Shown one piece after another: positions 2,952-13,411 of a stretch of 64,000 bases of DNA; position 1 is the stretch's first letter; the number at the start of each line of letters is the position of its first letter. A program made the translations under genes and the position numbers. The stretch lies in NCBI RefSeq assembly GCF_003018235.1, contig NZ_CP027437.1. One strand, 5' to 3'. This DNA is from Escherichia coli (GTDB lineage: Bacteria > Pseudomonadota > Gammaproteobacteria > Enterobacterales > Enterobacteriaceae). A model generated the notes under the pieces. It worked only from the letters and a program-made list of their open reading frames with translations, did not search any database and was not told the origin of the DNA.

Positions 2952-3449
2952 CTAAATGATAGGGAACAGACTCACGGGGTAATTTAACGACAAAGCACGG
3001 AGTTGAAGATCCCCACAAGCCTGGAATAAAAAAGCCAGCGACAGGCTGGCAATGTGAGGGTAACGCAAAGTGCTTAGAAACAAAAAAAGGCCGCCATCGG
3101 CGACCTTCGAGGTATCTAGCGTGCTGGATACTTTCAGCTTCGCCTTCAATTCAGCGTTGATTTCTTTCAGGCGATCAACATCGTTTTTAAGTTTTTCAAT
3201 GTCTTGCCCTTTATTATCAAGGTCGCGCTGAAGACCTTTAATAATTTCTGTTTGGGCCGCCTGTACTTCTCGTGTCGTCTGGAGAGACTTATCAATATCA
3301 TCAACTTGGTTAATCAAGCGTGTACCGAAAAAGCCTACAACTAACATAGTTATCCCAACCATAAAGTTGAGAACCCAGACTTTTGTTCCGGAAGCAGTGT
3401 TTGGAGTTTCGTCGATAAAGTGCACCTTATGCCAGTTAAAGTTACCCAA
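2952..3449 (-). CDS. hypothetical membrane/coiled-coil protein; 3' part of ORF probably non-coding
   Basis: TTG-initiated track ORF; internal ATG precedes a TM segment and coiled coil; C-terminal about 45 codons overlie two hairpin+T-tract terminators. Confidence 0.25.
   Translation of the reverse strand: MGNFNWHKVHFIDETPNTASGTKVWVLNFMVGITMLVVGFFGTRLINQVDDIDKSLQTTREVQAAQTEIIKGLQRDLDNKGQDIEKLKNDVDRLKEINAELKAKLKVSSTLDTSKVADGGLFLFLSTLRYPHIASLSLAFLFQACGDLQLRALSLNYPVSLFPII
3030..3107 (-). terminator. two tandem rho-independent terminators in the Q-to-holin interval (tR'-like)
   Basis: On minus strand: hairpin GCCAGCCTGTCGCTGGC followed by TTTTTTATT, and hairpin GGTCGCCGATGGCGGCC followed by TTTTTTTGTTT. 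Confidence 0.45.
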
Positions 3450-3908
3450 CGTCTGCGCAGATCGTTAGATTCGGCAACATTGTAACTGGATAAGGAATAG
3501 AAAACCTTGGAATTTTAAGAAGAAACTGATTGATCGATTATTTAACGAGCGAACACATCCATACACCCCAGACGGGTACTACGACAAAGGCCATGAAATA
3601 AGTAACTTTTGCTTGAATGTTTTGCATTTCGCTTCCTTAGCAGTCCGATAAGTACTGTCTGCTCATCCAACCTAACGAATGTAGATCAGAATGACAAGTC
3701 TTTCGCGCTAATTTCAATTTGATATCTGTTCGTAAACATGATGGCGCGAAATATTACGCATGAAGTGCTTCTACATCAACATAAAAGTTACTTTTTTTGT
3801 GTTCACAGCATGTAAAGTAAAAGCCCCGCACGATGGCGAGGCTGTTAATTCTTTGTCGACCAACAAAGCTATGGCGACGATATCAGATTTACATGAAATA
3901 TAAGCGTT

Positions 3909-4598
3909 TCAGTTCGGTTTTGCAAGACTTACGTGCAAACTTGTCGCCTTTTGTTGTGAACGTGATCGCGTTACTGAGATAAGCGCACCGCTATCGAGTC
4001 GCATAAAGCAGCTACGCATTGCCAACCAGTGAGGCAGGTATGTCTCTGTCCAGGTGGATTTCGCCACGCCAACCAGTTCCGCCAGCTTCTGGTATTCGTA
4101 GGCATCTTTCCCGACCAACCCTGCTTTGACATCCTGCGCTGCCAGCCATATCAGCTTCTTCAGGCGCTCCATGGTCTTGCCTGCCACCCTCTTCGCGCCG
4201 AGATACCCCCTGAATTCAGACCACGCCCACTGGGTGATCGCCACCTGGTATTCAAAGCTGATGTTTTCACTGTAACTCCACAGCAACCACGCTTTCTGAT
4301 GTTCTTCGAGAGACAGAACCGCGCGGCGCCATGAAGATGTTGAGAACTCAACCTGGCTGACCAGTGCAATGGATGAACCTTTTGCGTACGACTGCTTACC
4401 GGAAATCGGCGGATTATCCAGCGTAATCATCTTGCCCGTTACCTCATCCAGAATGCGCGGCTTCTTTCGTTTATATGTACCAGTATCAAATTGTGCATGC
4501 TCCAGCCAGGCTTCAAGCTGGCCTTTCGTTGCTCCGCTCAAATCAGCAGTAGCCACAATGAGTTGCTCGCGGACATACTGTAAATATTGGGTATTCAT
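3909..4598 (-). CDS. putative late-gene antiterminator Q-like protein
   Basis: 229-aa ORF occupying the Q position (downstream of rusA-ylcG, upstream of lysis genes); start overlaps ylcG stop (ATGA); family assignment tentative. Confidence 0.45.
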   Translation of the reverse strand: MNTQYLQYVREQLIVATADLSGATKGQLEAWLEHAQFDTGTYKRKKPRILDEVTGKMITLDNPPISGKQSYAKGSSIALVSQVEFSTSSWRRAVLSLEEHQKAWLLWSYSENISFEYQVAITQWAWSEFRGYLGAKRVAGKTMERLKKLIWLAAQDVKAGLVGKDAYEYQKLAELVGVAKSTWTETYLPHWLAMRSCFMRLDSGALISVTRSRSQQKATSLHVSLAKPN

Positions 4599-4735
4599 GC
4601 GGCAGCTCCTTTCAGTGTTTTGGCGTAATTCTTCAGTATCCGGTAATCGGTCAAAACAGAACCGGGGAAACGATATAAGCGCAGGCGCATCCAGCGGTGG
4701 CGAAGACGTTCTGCCATATAAGACTCAAACATCAT
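4595..4735 (-). CDS. ylcG: small DUF3950-type protein YlcG
   Basis: 46-codon ORF ([46 protein letters not shown]) coupled by ATGA overlaps to rusA and Q; matches recalled K-12 YlcG. Confidence 0.6.
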
Positions 4736-5094
4736 TCATTCCCCAGTTCGGTGATGGTCAGCTCCAGCTTCCCACCTTTGGTAACGGGCATCTTCACAAC
4801 ACGGTAATCAACGACCTGAACATCATCCAGCCAGAAACCTGCTTTGGTGAGTGCGTCAAAAGCGGCTTTTTGCAGATTATCCAGGTCACGGCGACGGCGA
4901 TCCGGCATGTGGCACTCAATACGGATTTTCACAGGCATAGCCAGGCCGATATCCAGCATTGCGTTTTTAATGATTTGGGCGACGTTATCGCGGTATGCCT
5001 GCCCCTCTGCGCTGACGTGCGTGCGCCCGCGATTATGGCGGTAATAGCGATTATTGCTCGGAGGCCAGGGTAATGTGATGCTGTAGGTATTCAC
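4732..5094 (-). CDS. rusA: RusA Holliday junction resolvase
   Basis: 120-aa product near-identical to recalled K-12 RusA ([38 protein letters not shown]...). Confidence 0.9.
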
Positions 5095-5381: not shown

Positions 5382-5544
5382 GATTCCTCCTTGCTGCCAG
5401 TCGCAACCATTTTTTATCAACCAGGCTGGCGGTATACCCTAGCAGCGTTGGTATTTCGGATGGCTTCAGCTCAGGCTTACGCTTACGACGATTTGGTACT
5501 CTGTAGATGTGTCCGTTCATGACCCGAATAAGCGGTGTAGTCAT
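5374..5544 (-). CDS. ninE: NinE
   Basis: 56-aa product [28 protein letters not shown]... matches recalled K-12 NinE; TAATG overlap with ybcN. Confidence 0.8.
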   Translation of the reverse strand: MTTPLIRVMNGHIYRVPNRRKRKPELKPSEIPTLLGYTASLVDKKWLRLAARRNHG

Positions 5545-5999
5545 TACGCCTCCTGCTTGTCGCGCAGCAGCTGGAACTCGCAGCTCTGTGGAATAGTCAG
5601 GTGGCAACCAATATTCATCGCCCAGGCTTCAACCTTACACAGGAAGACATACATCTCTCCGGTATCAAGATCGGAGGTATGGCGTAACGACTGGATAGTG
5701 GTGATATCACCGGTTACGACATCAACCAGGTCTTTGGTTTCATAACCGAGATATGTGTGTTTGAGAGCATCTTTTACCCAAGCTGGAGTGGCGAACGTTT
5801 TACCCCTGCTGATGAGGTATTCACTGATTTCGCTGTACCACATGTGGCTGAGTGCATTCTGGGAAAGACTGCGTCTCTCGCGCCACGGTTTAAGCACCAT
5901 GCGAAAGCATTTGCCGTCCTCCAGATAAGGCTGGATCTGCCGACCGATAGCGGTGAAGTTACCGCGATGCAATTTGATACCATCTTGTGGGAGGTTCAC
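5544..5999 (-). CDS. ybcN: DUF1367 prophage protein YbcN
   Basis: 151-aa product matches recalled K-12 YbcN over full length. Confidence 0.85.
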
Positions 6000-6191
6000 G
6001 CTTCACCTCCGCAGAGATCAAACGCTGGATGCAAAATATCGCAGGTGCATTTCTGCATCTGTGAATGGAGAAGAGAGGTTGGATTGTATGTGCGCATAAA
6101 CGTCCCCGTTTAGCGCAGAAGTCACCGGAGGAGTTCAAACTCTGGTGACTTAATTATGGCAAGTTGATTGTTGAAAATCAATTTAGTGGAT

Positions 6192-6974
6192 TTAGGCGCA
6201 ATACAAAGGATCATTAGCAGCTCTAATACCGCCCTGAATCGCAAGCCCTGTATGGCAATTTGACATTGAGCATGATTGCCATCTGTGCAAGGGACCTCCA
6301 TTAATCGAAACTTCCAGCAGATCTTTATCTCCTTTCATCCTGACCCCTTCATACAACATATCAAGACGCTCAACAATCAATCCTGTTGGAGGTTCCATTT
6401 TTAGAACGAGGGCAAACTCTCCTGGCCCACGTCGTATTGTTATACGCGGGCCGGTACACTCCACATCCCAATTGTCTGATTTAGCTTTCCATTCATTTTC
6501 ATCTATCAGTAAAGTCTCCTTACCAATAGAATTACAGAAAATTCCTGATAAAAGCATCGGTCCATGTGGTATGGGTGAAGGTTTCACAGAAAGAATGGGT
6601 TGTTCGTTGACTACAATCAAATTTTGACAGTTATGAAACGTCACTCCTGCAAATTTTACTGTTATAGGCTCATTATGAAAATCAAACATTTCATTTGCAA
6701 AACCAGCCTGTAAGCACTTGGGATTTCTGTCAGCTATTTCCACTGTCTGTGCTGAAAGTCTACCACGAGCTCTTTTTTGATTGCATTGGGAGCAAAGAAG
6801 TGTCATTCCATTCGGATCATGTACTTTGGCATCAACGAAGTCAGGTTTAAAATGCTCATAATCATAAAATCCAAATCCACAAATTACACAGCCAAAGCCG
6901 CACCTTTGCCTTATCTGACGTTTTATTGTCTCAGGTATTCTTCTTGAGAGCCCGTGTTTATTAATATTGTCCAT
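6192..6974 (-). CDS. HNH-domain protein with uncharacterised C-terminal domain (prophage cargo)
   Basis: 260 aa; N-terminal CGFGCVICG...YEHFKP...NGMTLLCSQCNQK fits HNH nuclease motif; about 160-aa C-terminal region unrecognised; AT-rich codon usage. Confidence 0.5.
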   Translation of the reverse strand: MDNINKHGLSRRIPETIKRQIRQRCGFGCVICGFGFYDYEHFKPDFVDAKVHDPNGMTLLCSQCNQKRARGRLSAQTVEIADRNPKCLQAGFANEMFDFHNEPITVKFAGVTFHNCQNLIVVNEQPILSVKPSPIPHGPMLLSGIFCNSIGKETLLIDENEWKAKSDNWDVECTGPRITIRRGPGEFALVLKMEPPTGLIVERLDMLYEGVRMKGDKDLLEVSINGGPLHRWQSCSMSNCHTGLAIQGGIRAANDPLYCA

Positions 6975-7148
6975 ATGGTTAGTACGCTATAAGTTTGTTT
7001 CTATAATTTTACCACAATAGATAAGTTTGTATCAGAAATCGCTATATGGAGTGAGCGGAATATTTATATTATTCATGCAATTGCTCTCCCGTACGCAGCC
7101 CGCACTTCCGTCATCGCAGAATGACGGAAGCCTTACTAACTAGCGCCT

Positions 7149-7472
7149 TTATTGAAACAGATTCTGAGGTAAATGCGGCAATACTCGACTCCACTTATCA
7201 TCCTGCCACGGCTGAAGTTTTACATGTGCCGTTTCTCGGACGAGGATTGCTCGCGCTCTGTTGAGTATCTGGGGATATTCTTGCTCGATGGAAGTGAAGT
7301 GACCAGCTTCACCATGCTCCGCATCCTGAAGAAGATGAGTAACGTTCTGGTAGGCAATTAACATCACATTCCCTGCTCGCCATAACCAGGCGAGTGTGCA
7401 AAGTTCGTTATCAGTGAATTGTTTTGTGATTGGGGATTGTTGAACTGCTAGAACGAGAACGCCAGCATCCAT
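7149..7472 (-). CDS. hypothetical protein (uncertain coding status)
   Basis: 107-aa ORF between ybcK and the HNH gene; no recognisable motif; overlapped by a 62-aa plus-strand ORF. Confidence 0.2.
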   Translation of the reverse strand: MDAGVLVLAVQQSPITKQFTDNELCTLAWLWRAGNVMLIAYQNVTHLLQDAEHGEAGHFTSIEQEYPQILNRARAILVRETAHVKLQPWQDDKWSRVLPHLPQNLFQ

Positions 7473-7583
7473 TGGCAGTCCCTATAGTAAAACCATAGCT
7501 CAGGACGCTTCGTTCAGGATAGATAATTTTATTGTACTTACCTAACTTTCTTACTATAGCACGGTTGAAAAAGTGATTATTAC

Positions 7584-9110
7584 TCAAAAATAAACCTCAC
7601 CATCAACCATATATTTGAGAGTACTTATCGCCTGCCGGGCGGATATTGTTTTCATTAAAGGATAGTGTTTAAAAACAATGCCATTCATAAAATAGATATC
7701 ACAGGTTTTATTATCTGTATTGATTATGATTTTTTCGAATGTTTTATAGGCAAGTGTACGACATAGCTCTCGCCCATTTTTACTGGTTAAGTCAATAGCA
7801 TGAAAATCACCAAGTGAGCTCACCGCTTTACTCTTCAAAGTTTTTAATGATACAGAAGCCCTTCGTAATTCCTTATCTAATACTCTGATTTTTTCTGCTA
7901 TAGCGGTAACTTCAGGCGCAACAGATAATGCAGCAATTAAATTATTAATTTTCATATGGAGCTCAATAATTCTCAACTCTAAAGTTTCATTAGCATCTTT
8001 CTTGTTTTCAACTGGTTGGATTTTACTACAATTAAAAAGCAACTCATTAATGATATTATAATCAACCAAATCTCTCTTTATTGATGGCCTGCCACATCGA
8101 TGCAGTCTTCTCATCGGACAAACATAATAGCCATGCAAACTTCCAGATACCGCATGAACAATCATGGTATTACCACAAGCCTCGCACTTCATAACTGTTC
8201 GAAGTAGATTTATCAACATAGGATTTTTGCTACTATTGCTAATACCAAAAGGTGCCAACCGAATTTCCTGCACAGCGTAAAACAAATCATCTGATATGAC
8301 TCTGGGATAATAGCCAGCGATTTCACTTATTCCTTTACCTCTTGCACGATATGAAGGTACGCATATACCTATCAGAGCTTTATTCGCTAATAATTTTTCA
8401 ATTACAGAAGGCCCCCATGCACTTTCTTTTCCTGAGAAATTCTTTACAGCATGATCATTTAAATACTTGGCTATTGCATTCAATGAGCGCCTTTCCATCC
8501 TGAGTTTAAAAATTAGCTCAATAGTTTTCACCCTGTCGGGGTCTGGAACAAAAGCCGTTCTTTTGTCATCTAAGGAGAGCCATCTCGGACAAGACGCCGT
8601 CATAATCGTACCTGATTCCAGTGCATCCTGCCGTTTTTTCTTCCATGATAATTTAACCCGACTTGACTTTATCTCGCTTTCTTCATTTGCCCTTTGTGCT
8701 ATAAGTATGGCTTTTATTAATGAATATGGCTCATTCAAAGAGTCAATATTATAGACTGTATTGTCGCAAAGAGTTATAACATCAATACCGTGATTCAAAA
8801 TCAATTTCAGACGTTCAATCGCTTCACCGACTTTTTCTCTTGAAAGTCTGTCCAGACTTTCAACTAACAATGTAGTTCCTGGCAATATATAACCATGCTC
8901 TATAGCATCTAAAAATTCCGAAAAAGCTCCTGATTGTGCATGCTTTCCTTTGAATGCACTTAATCCTAAATCTTCATATGTTATGGTATCAAGATAATAA
9001 TCACTATTTACCTTTAACCATTCAGCAATAAGTCTTCTCTGTCGGTTTAATGAGTCGCCAGACATCTGACCTGGTGATGAAAATCGCATATATGCTATGG
9101 CTTTTTTCAT
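7584..9110 (-). CDS. ybcK: large serine recombinase YbcK
   Basis: 508 aa; N-terminal resolvase-type catalytic domain (YMRFSSPGQ...SLNRQ), recombinase domain and Cys-rich zinc ribbon; length and position match K-12 DLP12 ybcK. Confidence 0.85.
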   Translation of the reverse strand: MKKAIAYMRFSSPGQMSGDSLNRQRRLIAEWLKVNSDYYLDTITYEDLGLSAFKGKHAQSGAFSEFLDAIEHGYILPGTTLLVESLDRLSREKVGEAIERLKLILNHGIDVITLCDNTVYNIDSLNEPYSLIKAILIAQRANEESEIKSSRVKLSWKKKRQDALESGTIMTASCPRWLSLDDKRTAFVPDPDRVKTIELIFKLRMERRSLNAIAKYLNDHAVKNFSGKESAWGPSVIEKLLANKALIGICVPSYRARGKGISEIAGYYPRVISDDLFYAVQEIRLAPFGISNSSKNPMLINLLRTVMKCEACGNTMIVHAVSGSLHGYYVCPMRRLHRCGRPSIKRDLVDYNIINELLFNCSKIQPVENKKDANETLELRIIELHMKINNLIAALSVAPEVTAIAEKIRVLDKELRRASVSLKTLKSKAVSSLGDFHAIDLTSKNGRELCRTLAYKTFEKIIINTDNKTCDIYFMNGIVFKHYPLMKTISARQAISTLKYMVDGEVYF

Positions 9111-9764: not shown

Positions 9765-10067
9765 TCATTGTGTACCCATTGATGTTCTTTTATATACCCT
9801 CAATACCCGTTTCATCGCGGCACTCTGGCGACACTCCTTAAAAATCAGATTCGTGCTCACCTTTCCTTCCCGTTCTTCTCTGGTAGCGAACCGGTAATAC
9901 ACCGTTCGCCAGACCTTACCATCAACGACCAGGATTCCTGCCCGCGCCATTTTAGCCGCAGCCTGATTTATGCTGGTTACGGTTGCGCCTGTTACCGCGG
10001 CAACGTCCTGTGCACAGAAGCTCTTATGCGTCCCCAGGTAATGAATAATTGCCTCTTTGCCCGTCAT
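9765..10067 (-). CDS. ren: Ren (Rex-exclusion relief protein)
   Basis: 100-aa product closely matches recalled lambda Ren (MTGKEAIIHYLGTH...FATREEREGK). Confidence 0.8.
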   Translation of the reverse strand: MTGKEAIIHYLGTHKSFCAQDVAAVTGATVTSINQAAAKMARAGILVVDGKVWRTVYYRFATREEREGKVSTNLIFKECRQSAAMKRVLRVYKRTSMGTQ

Positions 10068-10765
10068 ACACTTGCTCCTTTCAGTCCGAACTTAGCTTTG
10101 ATTTCTGCGATCTTCGCCAGAGCCTGTGCACGATTTAGAGGTCTACCGCCCATGACAGGAAGTTGTTTTACTGGTTCAGGTATCGCCTCACCACGGTTAA
10201 TTCGCGCGGTCATACAGGACAGTTCATCGGCAGCCTTGCGCCGTAATTCCGCGTCAGTCAACGCATTGGCCCGCATGTTCTGATACAGGTTGGTAACCAG
10301 CCAGTAGTGCGCGTTTGATTTCCACGGATAAGACTCTGCATCCGGATACAGACCACGCTTCCGGCAATACTCGTAAACCATATCAACCAGCTCGCTGACG
10401 TTTGGCAGCCCGGCGGTAACGGATGCTTCTTCCCGGCACCATGCAACAAACTGCCCGGGTGATGGCAGAAATGGTCTATTCTGCCGACGGGCAACACGCA
10501 TTCCGGCGCTCACCTGTTCCATCGTGGTGATCCCGTTTTCCCGGAAAGCCAGAACCCACTGGCGGCGGATTTCGTTCAGTTCGTTCTGGTCACGATTAGC
10601 CAGGCTCGCCGGGAAAGTTGCCAGTAACTGGCTGAATACACCGTTGATTATCTGCGCTACCTGCTGTACCTGCGGCTTTTCGTCGTACTGTTCCGGCATG
10701 TTGTTGGCGATCCGACGCATCTGCTCACGGTCAAAGTTAATCATCTGTGCGGCGATGTTTTTCAT
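10064..10765 (-). CDS. P: replication protein P (DnaB loader)
   Basis: 233-aa product near-identical to recalled lambda P. Confidence 0.9.
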   Translation of the reverse strand: MKNIAAQMINFDREQMRRIANNMPEQYDEKPQVQQVAQIINGVFSQLLATFPASLANRDQNELNEIRRQWVLAFRENGITTMEQVSAGMRVARRQNRPFLPSPGQFVAWCREEASVTAGLPNVSELVDMVYEYCRKRGLYPDAESYPWKSNAHYWLVTNLYQNMRANALTDAELRRKAADELSCMTARINRGEAIPEPVKQLPVMGGRPLNRAQALAKIAEIKAKFGLKGASV

Positions 10766-11781
10766 AGATCCACCCCGTAAATCCAGTCTGTGTTTGTCAG
10801 GTCGAGTTTTGGTTTGCTAGCTGTCACGCCTGCCTGTTGCTTGTTACGGTTGATTTCGAGTTGGGTCCACTTGTCGCGGAGTTTGGCCGGACTTAGCACG
10901 TTACCGGACCAGAAGTTGTCCTGGCATGCCCAGCGGAACAGCACGCACATGTCGCGGTGGTTACGTCCGTCACGTTCACGCATCAGGCGGATATCGTTAG
11001 CCCACCCTGCAAAATTCGGTTTTCTGGCTGATGGCGCGATGGTCTTCACCATGTCAAACATCCACTCTGCGGCGGTCAGGTCTTCTGCTGTCCCCCACTT
11101 GCTGCCGCTCTGAATTGCAGCATCCGGTTTCACCACAGGAAGATCGTTTTCTGGTTGGTCAGAGGATTCGCCAGAATTCTCGGACGAAAAAGGTTTTATA
11201 TTGTCTTTTGTTAGTTTGTCTTTTGTGTTTACCTGATTCGGGTAAACGCCTTTACCTGATTTGGGTAAACTTTTTTTACCTGATTCAGGTAAATTTACCT
11301 CTTTCAGGTAAACTTTATTTTTCTTACCTGATTCGGGTAATGTTGACCATTCACTGACCACATTATTAATGCCGGTATTCCGCCCGCTCTGAATAAAAAT
11401 CCCACGCTTTACCAGAACACTTTTTGCAGCAGAACACTTGTGCGGCAATATCCCGGTTAATTCGGAAAGTTGCTCGTTGCTAACCCAATCCAGTTTTTTA
11501 TTAAAGCCATATGTTTTGCGCATGACAGCCAGAAAGACCAGAAGCTGGTGCTGTGTTAATCCGGCCAGCATCACAGCTTCCAGCAACTCATTTGCAATGC
11601 GCGTATAACCATCATCGAGATCTGCCACGCGCGGCTCCTTTTGTGCCGCATCCGGCACTGGAAAATTGAATATCTCAGCAGTGTTTGCCATAATTCCTCC
11701 CGCAATGAGTGTGTTACGATTTGCACCTGAAAGTCGGTTCTGTTCCAGCAGACCGGCTTTCGCCATTTCTGAACCTGTCAT
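10762..11781 (-). CDS. O: replication initiator O-like protein (iteron-binding)
   Basis: 339-aa ORF upstream of P containing an internal array of 17-bp iterons; N-terminal region resembles lambda O (ADLDDGY...); C-terminal acidic linker. Confidence 0.8.
   Translation of the reverse strand: MTGSEMAKAGLLEQNRLSGANRNTLIAGGIMANTAEIFNFPVPDAAQKEPRVADLDDGYTRIANELLEAVMLAGLTQHQLLVFLAVMRKTYGFNKKLDWVSNEQLSELTGILPHKCSAAKSVLVKRGIFIQSGRNTGINNVVSEWSTLPESGKKNKVYLKEVNLPESGKKSLPKSGKGVYPNQVNTKDKLTKDNIKPFSSENSGESSDQPENDLPVVKPDAAIQSGSKWGTAEDLTAAEWMFDMVKTIAPSARKPNFAGWANDIRLMRERDGRNHRDMCVLFRWACQDNFWSGNVLSPAKLRDKWTQLEINRNKQQAGVTASKPKLDLTNTDWIYGVDL
11180..11340. repeat. phage replication origin: five 17-bp iterons (TTACC-N7-GGTAA) plus adjacent AT-rich tract, inside O
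   Basis: Repeats TTACCTGATTCGGGTAA (x2), TTACCTGATTTGGGTAA, TTACCTGATTCAGGTAA, TTACCTCTTTCAGGTAA at roughly 18-29 bp spacing; AT-rich block on the O-downstream side. Confidence 0.75.
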
Positions 11782-12317
11782 ATTGCCCCCAGCATGGTGG
11801 TGACCATTGCCATCAGTGGACCAGCCAGATCCGGGTCCACTCGAAACATCGACACAATGCCTTCACTCATCTCCTTCAGTTTCTGGTGGCGTGGTGCGTT
11901 GAGAATGACCGCCTGCTTTGCCTCACTGAGTTCCTTTTCCATTTCAGCCAGCCGAGCCATGAAGCTATCCTGCTCAACTAGGTAACCGCGATATTCCAGC
12001 GGTAGTACCGCCAGAATTGCCGGGGTCAGTTCACGCACGTTATTTCTGTATTTTTCAGAATCGAATTTGTTATCGAGGAAGCGGAACAGCTTCTGGCGTG
12101 CACGGCTGACATCATCAGGGAAATCGATGGTGCCGCCGCCCTGCTCCCGATACTCATTCACAATGAGTGCGGCAACGACATCCTGATTATCTACAGCCGA
12201 CCAGGCGCGGACGGCATCACGGATTTTTTCGTGGCCTGGAGCTTGTTTTGTTTGAGAACGATTTATCACCGCAGTCGGGCTAAATCCGCTAGTCTGTTGG
12301 TATGTAAGTGGTTGCAT
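11778..12317 (-). CDS. cII-position regulatory protein (possibly YdaT-like)
   Basis: 179-aa ORF between cro-like gene and O, ATGA overlap with O start; family not recognised with confidence. Confidence 0.35.
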   Translation of the reverse strand: MQPLTYQQTSGFSPTAVINRSQTKQAPGHEKIRDAVRAWSAVDNQDVVAALIVNEYREQGGGTIDFPDDVSRARQKLFRFLDNKFDSEKYRNNVRELTPAILAVLPLEYRGYLVEQDSFMARLAEMEKELSEAKQAVILNAPRHQKLKEMSEGIVSMFRVDPDLAGPLMAMVTTMLGAI

Positions 12318-12386
12318 AATTGACTCCTTTAGTTTGAATTGACTGTTAAGTTGATTGCTTATTGTTAAAGAGCGTGAAATGGAAAT

Positions 12387-12617
12387 TTAAGCTGCGTTCT
12401 TTTCAGTGTGTGGAAACAACTTCGGAAGATCCGGGCGAATCTGGTATGCCTTCACTACTCCACCAGTAGCCGTAACAATGCTGCCGACATGTTCAGGGGA
12501 TACCTTTGCTTTGTTGTGAAGCCACTTATAGACGGCCTGCTGTGAAACTTCGCAGGCAGCGCCTAGTTTCTTTTGTGAACCAACGATATTGATCGCTGTT
12601 TTGATGGCTGGGTTCAT
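12387..12617 (-). CDS. cro: Cro-like HTH regulator
   Basis: 76-aa protein with HTH (LGAACEVSQQAVYKWL), divergent from cI, GGAGG 5 nt upstream of ATG. Confidence 0.6.
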   Translation of the reverse strand: MNPAIKTAINIVGSQKKLGAACEVSQQAVYKWLHNKAKVSPEHVGSIVTATGGVVKAYQIRPDLPKLFPHTEKNAA

Positions 12618-12721
12618 AACAACCTCCGTGGTTAATTTGAATCAAGATTAAAACCATGGTTGTTTTTAGTCAACAACCATTTTCGTTTGATGAAATAAAA
12701 CCTTGGTTGTACATTTGGACT
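12618..12721. promoter_or_regulatory. OR-like operator/promoter region between cro and cI
   Basis: Three palindromic sites built on AACCA/TGGTT half-sites (AACCATGGTT; ACAACCATT; AACCTTGGTTGT) in a 100-bp divergent intergenic region. Confidence 0.45.
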
Positions 12722-13411
12722 ATGAAAACAACACTCTCAGAAAGACTTAAAGAAGCCAGATTAGCGCGAGGCCTTACACAAAAGGCGCTTGGGGATTTGG
12801 TCGGGGTTAGCCAAGCAGCTATTCAGAAAATCGAAACAGGGAAAGCTAACCAAACAACTAAAATCGTGGAGATCGCGAACGCTTTGGGTGTGCGCGCAGA
12901 ATGGTTATCTTCTGGCGTTGGAAATATGTCAGACAGTACAGTGCAACCAATACAAACAACTGTCAGCCATTCCAAATACTTTAAGATTGACGTTCTTGAT
13001 ATCGAAGTGAGTGCCGGGCCGGGAGTCATCAACCGTGAGTTTGTAGAAGTTCTACGCTCGGTTGAGTACTCGTTTGACGATGCTCGTCACATGTTCGATG
13101 GTAGGAAGGCAGAAAATATCCGCATCATTAACGTACGCGGTGACAGCATGTCAGGAACGATTGAACCTGGTGATCTTCTATTCGTTGATATCACGGTTAA
13201 ATCTTTCGACGGTGATGGTATCTATGCGTTTCTGTACGACGACACAGCCCATGTAAAGCGCCTGCAAATGATGAAGGATAAGCTGCTGGTTATCTCTGAT
13301 AACAAAAGCTACTCACCGTGGGACCCGATCGAGAAAGATGAGATGAACCGGGTATTTATCTTCGGGAAAGTTATTGGGAGCATGCCGCAGACGTATAGGA
13401 AGCATGGATAG
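12722..13411 (+). CDS. cI: CI-type prophage repressor (HTH plus S24 LexA-like peptidase domain)
   Basis: N-terminal HTH (LTQKALGDLVGVSQAAIQKIE), Ala-Gly cleavage site, GDSM serine motif and downstream Lys; ATG with almost no leader. Confidence 0.8.
   Translation: MKTTLSERLKEARLARGLTQKALGDLVGVSQAAIQKIETGKANQTTKIVEIANALGVRAEWLSSGVGNMSDSTVQPIQTTVSHSKYFKIDVLDIEVSAGPGVINREFVEVLRSVEYSFDDARHMFDGRKAENIRIINVRGDSMSGTIEPGDLLFVDITVKSFDGDGIYAFLYDDTAHVKRLQMMKDKLLVISDNKSYSPWDPIEKDEMNRVFIFGKVIGSMPQTYRKHG

What the first reader, a model, noticed from the sequence alone, without database searches (positions are those of the whole stretch)
6192..7583. Prophage nin-region cargo: HNH-nuclease-domain protein with unknown C-terminal domain, replacing K-12 ybcL/ybcM
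Between ybcK and ybcN, K-12 DLP12 carries ybcL, ybcM and ylcH. Here that slot holds a 260-aa protein with an N-terminal HNH motif and a roughly 160-aa unrecognised C-terminal domain, in AT-rich sequence, plus an uncertain 107-aa ORF. Variable cargo with a nuclease domain in the nin region is typical of phage defence or exclusion genes.
Basis: partly seen in the sequence, partly recalled or inferred. Interest (0 to 1): 0.55.

Follow-up and report, generated by a model that had tools for sequence, protein, structure and literature searches.

The report
Prophage HNH nuclease with orphan domain
A 260-residue gene carried as swappable cargo in an E. coli lambda-like prophage joins an intact HNH DNA-cutting domain to an acidic all-beta domain with no known relatives; it is a plausible but untested single-gene anti-phage nuclease from a large uncharacterised family.

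Summary
Window 6192-6974 (- strand) encodes a 260-aa protein. Its N-terminal ~90 residues are a zinc-finger HNH nuclease with conserved catalytic residues. Its C-terminal ~170 residues are an all-beta domain with no Pfam, PDB or AlphaFold-DB relative outside this family.

The gene lies in a 1363-bp AT-rich cassette (6182-7544) that replaces K-12 ybcL-ybcM. ylcH is retained. The 107-aa ORF is the 5'-truncated remnant of a rha/antirepressor gene.

The protein belongs to a large unnamed family (PHROG 6544; 423 clusters at E<1e-30) found in several phyla. It is under strong purifying selection and has no conserved neighbour gene.

It recurs as single-gene cargo in unrelated mobile elements:
- lambdoid ren-ninB slots, which hold PD-lambda-1 or a SIR2 protein in sibling prophages;
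- the P2 gpQ-side hotspot;
- a P4-like satellite;
- an inovirus;
- a prophage end, beside a type IV enzyme and a DUF4238 protein.

The best reading (about 0.5) is a self-contained defence or exclusion DNase gated by its acidic beta domain. No experiment supports this, and no defence database model matches. The rivals are direct restriction, a phage-benefit nuclease, and a homing endonuclease. I rate it a new variant of a known kind, of moderate interest.

The parts
6192..6974 (-). Coding sequence of the 260-aa HNH-beta protein (RefSeq WP_001348590.1, 'hypothetical protein'; PHROG 6544), stop codon included
   Evidence: ORF list. RefSeq annotation of an identical locus. PHROG 6544 matched full length, E 1.8e-141. 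305 homologues found. Sixteen homologous ORFs are intact, with dN 0.14-0.49 and saturated dS.
6705..6974 (-). N-terminal HNH (beta-beta-alpha-metal) nuclease domain, residues 1-90; basic (pI about 9)
6195..6704 (-). C-terminal all-beta domain, residues 91-260; about 17 strands; acidic (family median pI 4.9); no known relatives
6975..7097 (-). Module-specific 5' region of the gene. It has a sigma-70-like site with an extended -10 (CTGATA-18-TAAAAT, 7035..7006) and no Shine-Dalgarno sequence before the ATG.
   Evidence: Promoter scan, though the number of sites in the region is not above shuffles. Sequence read directly. The segment is unique to carriers of this gene.
6182..7097 (-). The 916-bp segment specific to this gene: ORF plus 123 bp upstream and 10 bp downstream. 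Sibling lambdoid phages carry other cargo between the same end points.
   Evidence: BLASTN junctions: every sibling (K-12, Turner, PhiR26_1, PhiR5_1, PhiR30_1) breaks at 6181, and the PhiR phages resume at 7098.
6182..7544 (-). The whole cassette that differs from K-12 DLP12, which has ybcL-ybcM here
   Evidence: BLASTN against NC_000913.
7149..7472 (-). 107-aa ORF: the 5'-truncated remnant of a rha/antirepressor gene, with only the P22AR C-terminal domain left. It is not part of the nuclease unit.
   Evidence: Pfam P22_AR_C, E 1.5e-13. 79% identical to residues 147-249 of the 249-aa Rha protein of phage PhiR5_1. PHROG 7640. RefSeq marks it as a pseudogene in E24377A.
7104..7131 (-). 12-bp-stem hairpin just after the rha remnant, with no U-run. 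It is shared with phages that carry full-length rha, so it belongs to the rha module and bounds the nuclease module upstream.
   Evidence: RNA fold: -26.6 kcal/mol, z -3.6. It lies inside the 7098-7459 block shared with the PhiR phages.
5996..6097 (-). ylcH homologue (33 aa), retained downstream of the cassette
   Evidence: RefSeq CDS in an identical locus. 85% identity to K-12 YlcH.

Best explanation
The gene is a self-contained, single-gene cargo nuclease of temperate phages and other mobile elements. It most likely protects the lysogen, and so the prophage, against other phages.

Shown:
- It encodes a soluble 29-kDa protein whose basic N-terminal domain is a zinc-finger HNH nuclease with an intact catalytic set (E40-H41 ... 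N65).
- Its acidic C-terminal beta domain is found only in this family.
- Both domains are under strong purifying selection.
- It has no conserved partner gene.
- It moves as a compact module into accessory slots of unrelated elements.

Inferred mechanism:
1. In the uninfected cell the acidic beta domain holds the DNA-binding HNH domain inactive.
2. A cue produced during infection engages the beta domain. The cue could be a phage protein, a nucleic-acid structure or a small molecule.
3. The released HNH domain cuts DNA, stopping the invading phage either directly or by abortive infection.

Expression in the lysogen from the gene's own promoter-like site is also inferred, not shown.

For: 2. 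A real, maintained gene. dS is saturated while dN is 0.14-0.49, and all 16 homologous ORFs examined are intact. The family has 423 clusters at E<1e-30 and spans Proteobacteria, Bacteroidota and Cyanobacteria.

3. A single-gene unit. In 34 dereplicated viral groups, no protein cluster at position -1 or +1 is shared by more than 2 groups.

4. Cargo behaviour. It is a 916-bp module swapped between fixed junctions and is AT-rich. It is present in 98 IMG/VR contigs but in only 1 of 50,697 GenBank phage records.

5. Defence-type locations:
- The same ren-ninB slot holds PD-lambda-1 (PADLOC 1.9e-198) or a SIR2 protein (4.8e-63) in siblings.
- A P2-like prophage carries it beside portal gpQ, with a RelE/ParE toxin gene and an XRE regulator gene between them; this is the side on which Rousset et al. 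place the P2 defence hotspot.
- A P4-like satellite carries it next to the primase.
- An inovirus carries it next to the integrase.
- An Alcaligenes prophage end carries it beside a type IV REase-like HNH and a DUF4238 protein.
- It is next to HicAB plus an IS in Undibacterium.
- It is next to a HerA-like ATPase on a Calothrix plasmid.

6. The acidic beta domain (median pI 4.9, net charge -8) against a basic HNH domain, together with a confident fixed two-domain model (pTM 0.80), fits a regulatory or sensor role better than a DNA reader.

7. A validated precedent for the architecture: DS-7, a single protein with an N-terminal Cap5-like HNH and a C-terminal beta domain, protects E. coli (PMC13092281).
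Against: - No experiment on any family member was found.
- No significant match to PADLOC-DB v2 (2023) or NCBIfam. The accession is absent from the stored part of the DefensePredictor tables.
- The slot also carries non-defence cargo, so location alone is weak evidence.
- In this window the gene is co-oriented with the nin operon. The promoter-like site is not above chance, no ribosome-binding site is visible, and no terminator follows. Expression may therefore be lytic only.
- High sequence conservation of the putative sensor domain across distant hosts is unusual for sensors of fast-evolving phage proteins.
- The gating role of the beta domain is inference from charge and a predicted model only.
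Confidence: 0.5

Rival explanations
1. Direct restriction nuclease. The protein cuts incoming DNA that differs chemically from host DNA, and no activation step is needed. It would be either modification-dependent (type IV, like McrA of prophage e14) or blocked by methylation.
For: - EcoKMcrA and other type IV HNH enzymes are among the best fold matches for the HNH domain.
- It is a single gene with no immunity partner.
- Strong conservation of the second domain would suit a chemically constant ligand.
- DNA methyltransferases of several families lie within 2 genes in 6-8 of 34 viral groups.
Against: - The beta domain is acidic and shows no similarity to SRA, EVE, YTH, winged-helix or NEco readers.
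- The PADLOC type IV models do not match it, although they do match the neighbouring HNH protein in Alcaligenes.
- Adjacent methyltransferases belong to unrelated families and are absent from most contexts, including this window. This rules out a cognate type II pair.
Confidence: 0.13
2. Phage-benefit nuclease. It is made from the early (nin) operon during lytic growth and helps the phage itself, for example by degrading host or competitor DNA, processing recombination or replication intermediates, or countering a host defence.
For: - In this window and in most enterobacterial relatives the gene lies in the nin region, on the same strand as recombination and repair genes (ninB/ybcN, ybcO, rusA).
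- 25 of 34 upstream neighbours are co-oriented.
- No convincing independent promoter, ribosome-binding site or terminator.
- It often lies near phage methyltransferases, which are anti-restriction genes.
Against: - It is also found where a lytic-cycle role makes little sense: antisense in a Pseudomonas prophage, in an inovirus, in a P4-like satellite, in a chromosomal islet with HicAB and an IS, and on a cyanobacterial plasmid.
- It is almost absent from sequenced phage isolates.
- Closely related phages do without it.
Confidence: 0.17
3. Selfish free-standing homing endonuclease. It spreads among related phages by cutting gene-less alleles and gives the host no benefit.
For: - The order N-terminal HNH plus a second domain is that of free-standing HNH homing enzymes.
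- The gene occupies an intergenic, presence/absence-variable position between conserved genes with sharp junctions.
- PHROG 'HNH endonuclease' families give weak hits.
Against: - Homologues only 75-79% identical already sit between different neighbours, and no flanking gene is conserved across 34 groups.
- The cassette replaces unrelated DNA rather than interrupting a target.
- The second domain is acidic and has no NUMOD, IENR1, AP2 or HTH module.
- Both domains are under strong purifying selection across phyla, unlike the usual decay of homing genes.
- There is no intron or intein context.
Confidence: 0.08
4. An inert leftover of a cryptic prophage, with no current function.
For: - It lies in a DLP12-like element next to a truncated rha gene.
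- The gene is split by an IS in 2 of about 81 E. coli carriers, and 26 genomes keep only a 50-bp scar of it.
Against: - The ORF is intact in 79 genomes at 99.7% identity or more.
- All 16 diverged homologues examined are intact, with omega far below 1.
- The catalytic residues are invariant.
Confidence: 0.02

Closest known systems
Cap5, the HNH-SAVED effector nuclease of CBASS (PDB 7rwk)
   Different: There is no SAVED domain. No cyclase or other partner gene is present. There is no sequence similarity to any PDB chain.
EcoKMcrA, the type IV HNH restriction enzyme of cryptic prophage e14 (PDB 6ghc)
   Different: The domain order is reversed: McrA has its reader N-terminal and its HNH C-terminal. 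The beta domain here is unrelated and acidic. The PADLOC type IV model does not match.
DS-7 ('SVIR', WP_225403053.1) of the DefensePredictor study
   Same: It is a single protein validated as anti-phage in E. coli, with an N-terminal Cap5-like HNH and a C-terminal beta-rich domain (PMC13092281).
   Different: No detectable sequence or profile similarity (hhalign probability 0.3%). Its C-terminal domain is a baseplate DUF2634 fold, which is not found here.
PD-lambda-1 and other cargo of the lambdoid ren-ninB slot
   Same: They occupy the same genomic slot in sibling lambdoid phages and prophages, bounded by the same downstream junction.
   Different: The proteins are unrelated. Sharing a slot shows only that the position accepts accessory and defence cargo.
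Septu PtuB / TIGR02646-type HNH (also the HNH of retron Eco7)
   Different: The score is below significance. There is no PtuA-type ATPase or reverse transcriptase next to it.

Membership tests
HNH (beta-beta-alpha-metal) nuclease superfamily | Two CxxC pairs forming the structural zinc site around the beta-beta-alpha core | tested here: met
   C29, C32 and C61 are invariant and C64 is at least 90% conserved in 40 homologues. They are also conserved in 25 distant members.
HNH (beta-beta-alpha-metal) nuclease superfamily | A catalytic His preceded by an acidic residue, and a downstream Asn or His metal ligand | tested here: met
HNH (beta-beta-alpha-metal) nuclease superfamily | Metal-dependent nuclease activity | not testable with these tools
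   This needs purified protein.
CBASS Cap5 effector | C-terminal SAVED domain | tested here: not met
CBASS Cap5 effector | Encoded next to a CD-NTase cyclase | tested here: not met
   Neighbours here are a rha remnant and ylcH/ybcN. No neighbour is conserved in 34 groups.
Septu (PtuAB) | A PtuB-type HNH with an adjacent PtuA ATPase | tested here: not met
   The PtuB model scores only E 0.031. No ATPase neighbour is present.
Type IV (modification-dependent) HNH restriction enzymes, McrA-like | A recognised modified-base reader domain (SRA, EVE, YTH, winged helix, NEco) fused to HNH | tested here: not met
Type IV (modification-dependent) HNH restriction enzymes, McrA-like | Cleavage only of modified DNA | not testable with these tools
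   This needs biochemical or plating assays.
Type II restriction-modification | A cognate methyltransferase always encoded beside the nuclease | tested here: not met
   No methyltransferase is annotated from the cI-side genes to the lysis genes of an identical locus. One lies within 2 genes in only 6-8 of 34 groups, and these belong to unrelated families.
Free-standing HNH homing endonuclease | A constant insertion site next to, or inside, a conserved target gene (or an intron/intein context) | tested here: not met
   Flanking genes differ even among homologues 75-79% identical. No cluster at position -1 or +1 is shared by more than 2 of 34 groups. The cassette replaces unrelated DNA.
Free-standing HNH homing endonuclease | C-terminal DNA-binding modules (NUMOD, IENR1, AP2, HTH) | tested here: not met
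   Pfam finds none. The C-terminal domain has a net negative charge.
Packaging-associated HNH (HK97 gp74-like) | A small (about 100-130 aa) HNH encoded next to the terminase genes at the cos end | tested here: not met
   The protein is 260 aa and lies in the early nin region between ybcK and ybcN. No terminase cluster recurs among the neighbours.
DS-7 (DefensePredictor) | Sequence homology and a DUF2634 baseplate-like C-terminal domain | tested here: not met
   hhalign probability is 0.3%. No DUF2634 hit.
PHROG 6544 (unnamed phage protein family) | Full-length match to the family profile | tested here: met
   E 1.8e-141, residues 1-255 against profile positions 1-248 of 248. The family has no assigned function.

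The most novel reading that the evidence does not exclude
The acidic all-beta domain is a previously undescribed sensor or gating fold, and the HNH-beta protein is the founder of a new, widespread single-gene anti-phage system. The family has more than 1,300 clusters at 50% identity and is found in several bacterial phyla. It is carried in the accessory hotspots of at least five kinds of mobile element (lambdoid, P2-like, P4-like, filamentous phages, plasmids), sometimes with extra SEC-C or TPR modules.
Probability: 0.4. Interest if true: 0.62.

Novelty: new variant of a known kind. Interest (0 to 1): 0.45.

Why it matters
If the defence reading is right, this adds a compact (0.9-kb) single-gene immune nuclease to the known repertoire. 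Its control domain has no structural relatives. The family is common enough to affect phage host range in Enterobacteria, Pseudomonas, Burkholderia, Vibrio and beyond, which matters for phage therapy.

It would also mark the ren-ninB interval of lambdoid prophages as a defence-cargo hotspot comparable to the P2 and P4 hotspots.

If instead the gene serves the phage, it would be a new accessory nuclease of the nin region. Either way, a large family now labelled 'hypothetical protein' would gain a function.

Tried and rejected
- PADLOC, NCBIfam and Pfam on the protein gave nothing significant except a marginal HNH and a marginal PtuB hit.
- Sequence and profile searches of the PDB gave only chance hits.
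- Comparison with the validated DS-7 HNH protein showed no homology.
- A fold search with the C-terminal domain alone found no relatives outside the family. SRA, SAVED and baseplate ideas were therefore dropped.
- Rfam on 5900-7700 found nothing.
- A terminator after the gene: the hairpin is not significant.
- The promoter scan found no more sites than in shuffles.
- Literature searches by accession, PHROG id and keywords found no paper on the family.
- The DefensePredictor tables held as text lack this accession and its motifs, but several files are truncated. The candidate 'HNH1' (WP_252151320.1, 301 aa), which was tested and carries no DS number in the stored tables, could not be compared because its sequence is not in the stored tables.
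- The idea that the second HNH gene in the Alcaligenes locus is a paralogue was rejected: it is a McrA-like type IV enzyme.
- A type II R-M pairing was rejected because methyltransferases are absent from most contexts.
- I did not run the genome contigs or metagenome scans. The viral contigs and per-protein look-ups gave enough context.

Full report
**What is in the window.** The window runs opposite to the K-12 DLP12 map. On the minus strand the genes run in this order:
- emrE;
- ybcK (7584-9110);
- a 107-aa ORF (7149-7472);
- a 260-aa ORF (6192-6974);
- a 33-aa ylcH homologue (5996-6097);
- ybcN (5544-5999);
- ninE, ybcO, rusA, ylcG and a 229-aa Q-like gene.

GC falls to 0.37-0.42 over 6300-7050, against 0.50-0.53 on both sides. 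BLASTN against MG1655 shows that homology stops at 7545 and resumes at 6181. So 1363 bp here stand where K-12 has 1814 bp carrying ybcL and ybcM. ylcH is kept: it is 85% identical to the K-12 protein.

**Distribution in E. coli.** The identical 1.7-kb arrangement is present in 79 of 5426 complete E. coli genomes, including E24377A. RefSeq calls the 260-aa product 'hypothetical protein'.

**The 107-aa ORF.** It carries only a P22 antirepressor C-terminal domain (Pfam E 1.5e-13). It is 79% identical to residues 147-249 of the 249-aa Rha protein of phage PhiR5_1. It is therefore the 3' remnant of a rha/ant gene, not a partner of the nuclease. A strong hairpin at 7104-7131 (-26.6 kcal/mol, z -3.6) follows it. 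That hairpin lies in the block shared with rha-carrying phages (7098-7459).

**Module boundaries.** Every sibling examined (K-12, phages Turner, PhiR26_1, PhiR5_1 and PhiR30_1) loses homology at exactly 6181. The PhiR phages regain it at 7098. The nuclease-specific module is therefore 6182-7097, or 916 bp: the ORF, 123 bp upstream and 10 bp downstream. The upstream piece has a sigma-70-like site with an extended -10 (7035..7006), but such sites are no more frequent here than in shuffles. No Shine-Dalgarno sequence precedes the ATG, and no convincing terminator follows. Rfam finds nothing.

**The protein: HNH domain.** In an alignment of 40 homologues the invariant residues include C25, C29, C32, E40, H41, H52, C61 and N65, with C64 at 90% or more. 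This is the CxxC...(E)H...CxxC(N/H) pattern of zinc-finger HNH nucleases. In more distant members position 65 is the canonical His. Pfam HNH is marginal on this sequence (E 0.05) but significant in relatives (2.4e-5).

**The protein: beta domain.**
- Pfam finds nothing in it.
- It has its own conserved polar residues: N160 and D170 are invariant in both the close and the distant sets.
- It is acidic, with median pI 4.9 and net charge about -8, whereas the HNH domain is basic (pI about 9).
- The protein has no hydrophobic segment of membrane-spanning strength.

**The family.** The protein matches PHROG 6544 (unknown function) over its full length (E 1.8e-141). A search of 1.84 billion cluster representatives finds 2041 relatives at E<=1e-3, 1388 at E<=1e-10 and 423 at E<=1e-30. 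Named hits come from Enterobacteria, Burkholderia, Comamonas, Pseudomonas and Vibrio, and all are 'hypothetical' or 'HNH endonuclease'. Foldseek finds the same two-domain fold in Bacteroidota and Cyanobacteria. Some members add a C-terminal extension: a SEC-C motif in 5-7 of 25 long members, and TPR or CxxCxxCC modules once each. Against 16 diverged homologues, synonymous sites are saturated while dN is 0.14-0.49, and every ORF is intact. The gene is under strong purifying selection in both domains.

**No partner gene.** Ninety-eight IMG/VR contigs encode relatives. I called ORFs crudely, clustered the neighbours and collapsed the loci to 34 groups at 85% identity of the nuclease. No protein cluster at position -1 or +1 is shared by more than two groups. 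The most recurrent clusters within five genes (5 of 34) are phage backbone genes: DinI-like, DNA methylase, DUF1367, NinB, RusA, O and Q. The unit is a single gene.

**Where it sits.**
- In Klebsiella and Enterobacter prophages it follows the replication genes, as it does here.
- In a Pseudomonas prophage it lies antisense in the early-left region.
- In an inovirus prophage it lies next to the integrase.
- In a P2-like prophage of Pseudomonas luteola it lies beside portal gpQ, with a RelE/ParE toxin gene and an XRE regulator gene between them. This is the side on which Rousset et al. describe the P2 defence hotspot between gpA and gpQ; the stretch I read shows no gpA.
- In a Hafnia P4-like satellite it is next to the primase, and the satellite also carries a KAP/PifA-like NTPase.
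- At an Alcaligenes prophage end it is followed by a McrA-like type IV enzyme (PADLOC 3.5e-7) and a DUF4238 protein. DUF4238 is a domain validated in defence by Rousset et al..
- In Undibacterium it lies beside HicAB and an IS.
- On a Calothrix plasmid it lies beside a HerA-like ATPase.
- Only 1 of 50,697 GenBank phage records carries it, and that record is a Klebsiella phage whose name points to a prophage of its host strain. Only 7 of 72,556 plasmids carry it.

**The ren-ninB slot.** The slot in the lambdoid backbone is highly variable:
- K-12 has ybcL-ybcM.
- Phage Turner has three small ORFs.
- PhiR26_1 has PD-lambda-1 (PADLOC 1.9e-198), rha and a 169-aa ORF.
- PhiR5_1 has rha and a 168-aa ORF.
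- PhiR30_1 has an acyltransferase and a lipoprotein.
- Strain Res13-Lact-PEA06-10 has a 643-aa SIR2 protein (PADLOC 4.8e-63); it is one of 26 E. coli genomes that keep only a 50-bp scar of the 3' end of the nuclease gene.

The slot therefore accepts defence genes, but other cargo as well.

**Interpretation.** The shown facts are:
- an intact HNH nuclease;
- a conserved, acidic, family-specific second domain;
- purifying selection;
- no partner gene;
- compact modular transfer into accessory regions of unrelated mobile elements, several of which are known defence hotspots.

I infer a single-gene defence or exclusion nuclease whose beta domain keeps the HNH domain off until infection (confidence about 0.5). 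DS-7 of the DefensePredictor study shows that a lone Cap5-like HNH fused to a beta-rich domain can protect E. coli (PMC13092281). It is only an analogue, because hhalign finds no homology.

**Weak points.**
- There are no experimental data.
- No defence-database model matches.
- Expression in the lysogen is unproven.
- The putative sensor is unusually conserved.

**Rivals.**
- Direct restriction, type IV-like or methylation-sensitive (0.13). It is favoured by the McrA resemblance and by nearby methyltransferases. It is disfavoured by the acidic domain, which resembles no known reader.
- A phage-benefit nuclease of the nin operon (0.17). It is favoured by co-orientation and the lack of clear independent signals. 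It is disfavoured by the non-lambdoid and non-phage contexts.
- A homing endonuclease (0.08). It is disfavoured by variable flanks at 75-79% identity, replacement rather than insertion, an acidic second domain and long-term purifying selection.
- Junk (0.02).

**Novelty and score.** A nuclease fused to a gating or sensor domain and carried as prophage cargo is a known kind of system. What is new is the orphan beta domain and the size of the unstudied family. I therefore rate it a new variant of a known kind, with interest 0.45. It is a good, cheap candidate for a plating test, but nothing here would astonish a specialist until function is shown.

Noticed in passing
window 5996-6097 (- strand): A 33-aa ylcH homologue, 85% identical to K-12 YlcH, is retained and overlaps the ybcN start.
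   Followed up: yes
window 7149-7472 (- strand): The 107-aa ORF is the 3' part of a rha/antirepressor gene, with only the P22AR C-terminal domain left. It is 79% identical to residues 147-249 of the Rha protein of phage PhiR5_1. It is nevertheless conserved as a 107-aa ORF (PHROG 7640) and is also present in phage Turner.
   Followed up: yes
L103, L104, L113 (between ybcK and the rha remnant, or inside it; window about 7300-7583); L105 and L107 (inside the nuclease gene): Five independent IS insertions were seen among the carriers examined. ISVsa5, an IS3-family element and IS66 lie upstream. IS1203 and IS3 split the nuclease gene itself in two genomes.
   Followed up: partly
L106 (E. coli Res13-Lact-PEA06-10), 2501-2550 and 3040-4971: Twenty-six E. 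coli genomes keep only the last 50 bp of the nuclease gene. In the one examined this is fused to a decayed rha fragment, with a 643-aa SIR2-family protein (strong PADLOC SIR2 hits) upstream in the same slot. This looks like a deletion scar showing cargo turnover.
   Followed up: partly
IMG/VR loci L045, L050, L065, L070, L074, L077, L078, L097; Klebsiella L005: DNA methyltransferases of at least four unrelated families lie within two genes of the nuclease gene in 6-8 of 34 dereplicated groups. With one representative per group, 6 are observed against 2.2 expected if placement within the locus were random (binomial tail 0.008), but the groups are not fully independent. No methyltransferase is nearby in this window. 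The meaning is unknown.
   Followed up: partly
window 6826-6853 (+ strand): The best sigma-70 consensus match in the region (TTGGCA-16-TAAAAT, 10 of 12) is antisense, inside the 5' part of the nuclease ORF. It depends on the K43 codon, which is specific to the close subfamily, so it is probably a chance match in AT-rich coding sequence.
   Followed up: partly
window 7104-7131 (- strand): A strong 12-bp-stem hairpin (-26.6 kcal/mol, z -3.6) without a U-run lies just after the rha remnant and is shared with phages carrying full-length rha. It could be a transcript-end or processing signal, or a recombination boundary.
   Followed up: partly
window 3909-4598 (- strand): The antiterminator here is a 229-aa Q-like protein (PHROG 304, E 1e-104), not the 125-127-aa QuuD-type Q found in K-12 and in strain 582. 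The late-gene regulator has therefore also been swapped relative to otherwise near-identical prophages.
   Followed up: partly
L110 (Alcaligenes faecalis prophage end), 10001-13338: Here the nuclease gene is followed by a 67-aa ORF, a McrA-like type IV HNH enzyme and a DUF4238 protein. The group looks like a small defence cluster between tail/lysis genes and the chromosome.
   Followed up: partly
distant family members P0125, P0195, P0202, P0205, P0218, P0238 and others: Many longer relatives end in a SEC-C zinc motif (CPCGSGKKFKxCHG). Others carry TPR or CxxCxxCC modules after the beta domain. The core HNH-beta unit is thus combined with variable tails.
   Followed up: partly
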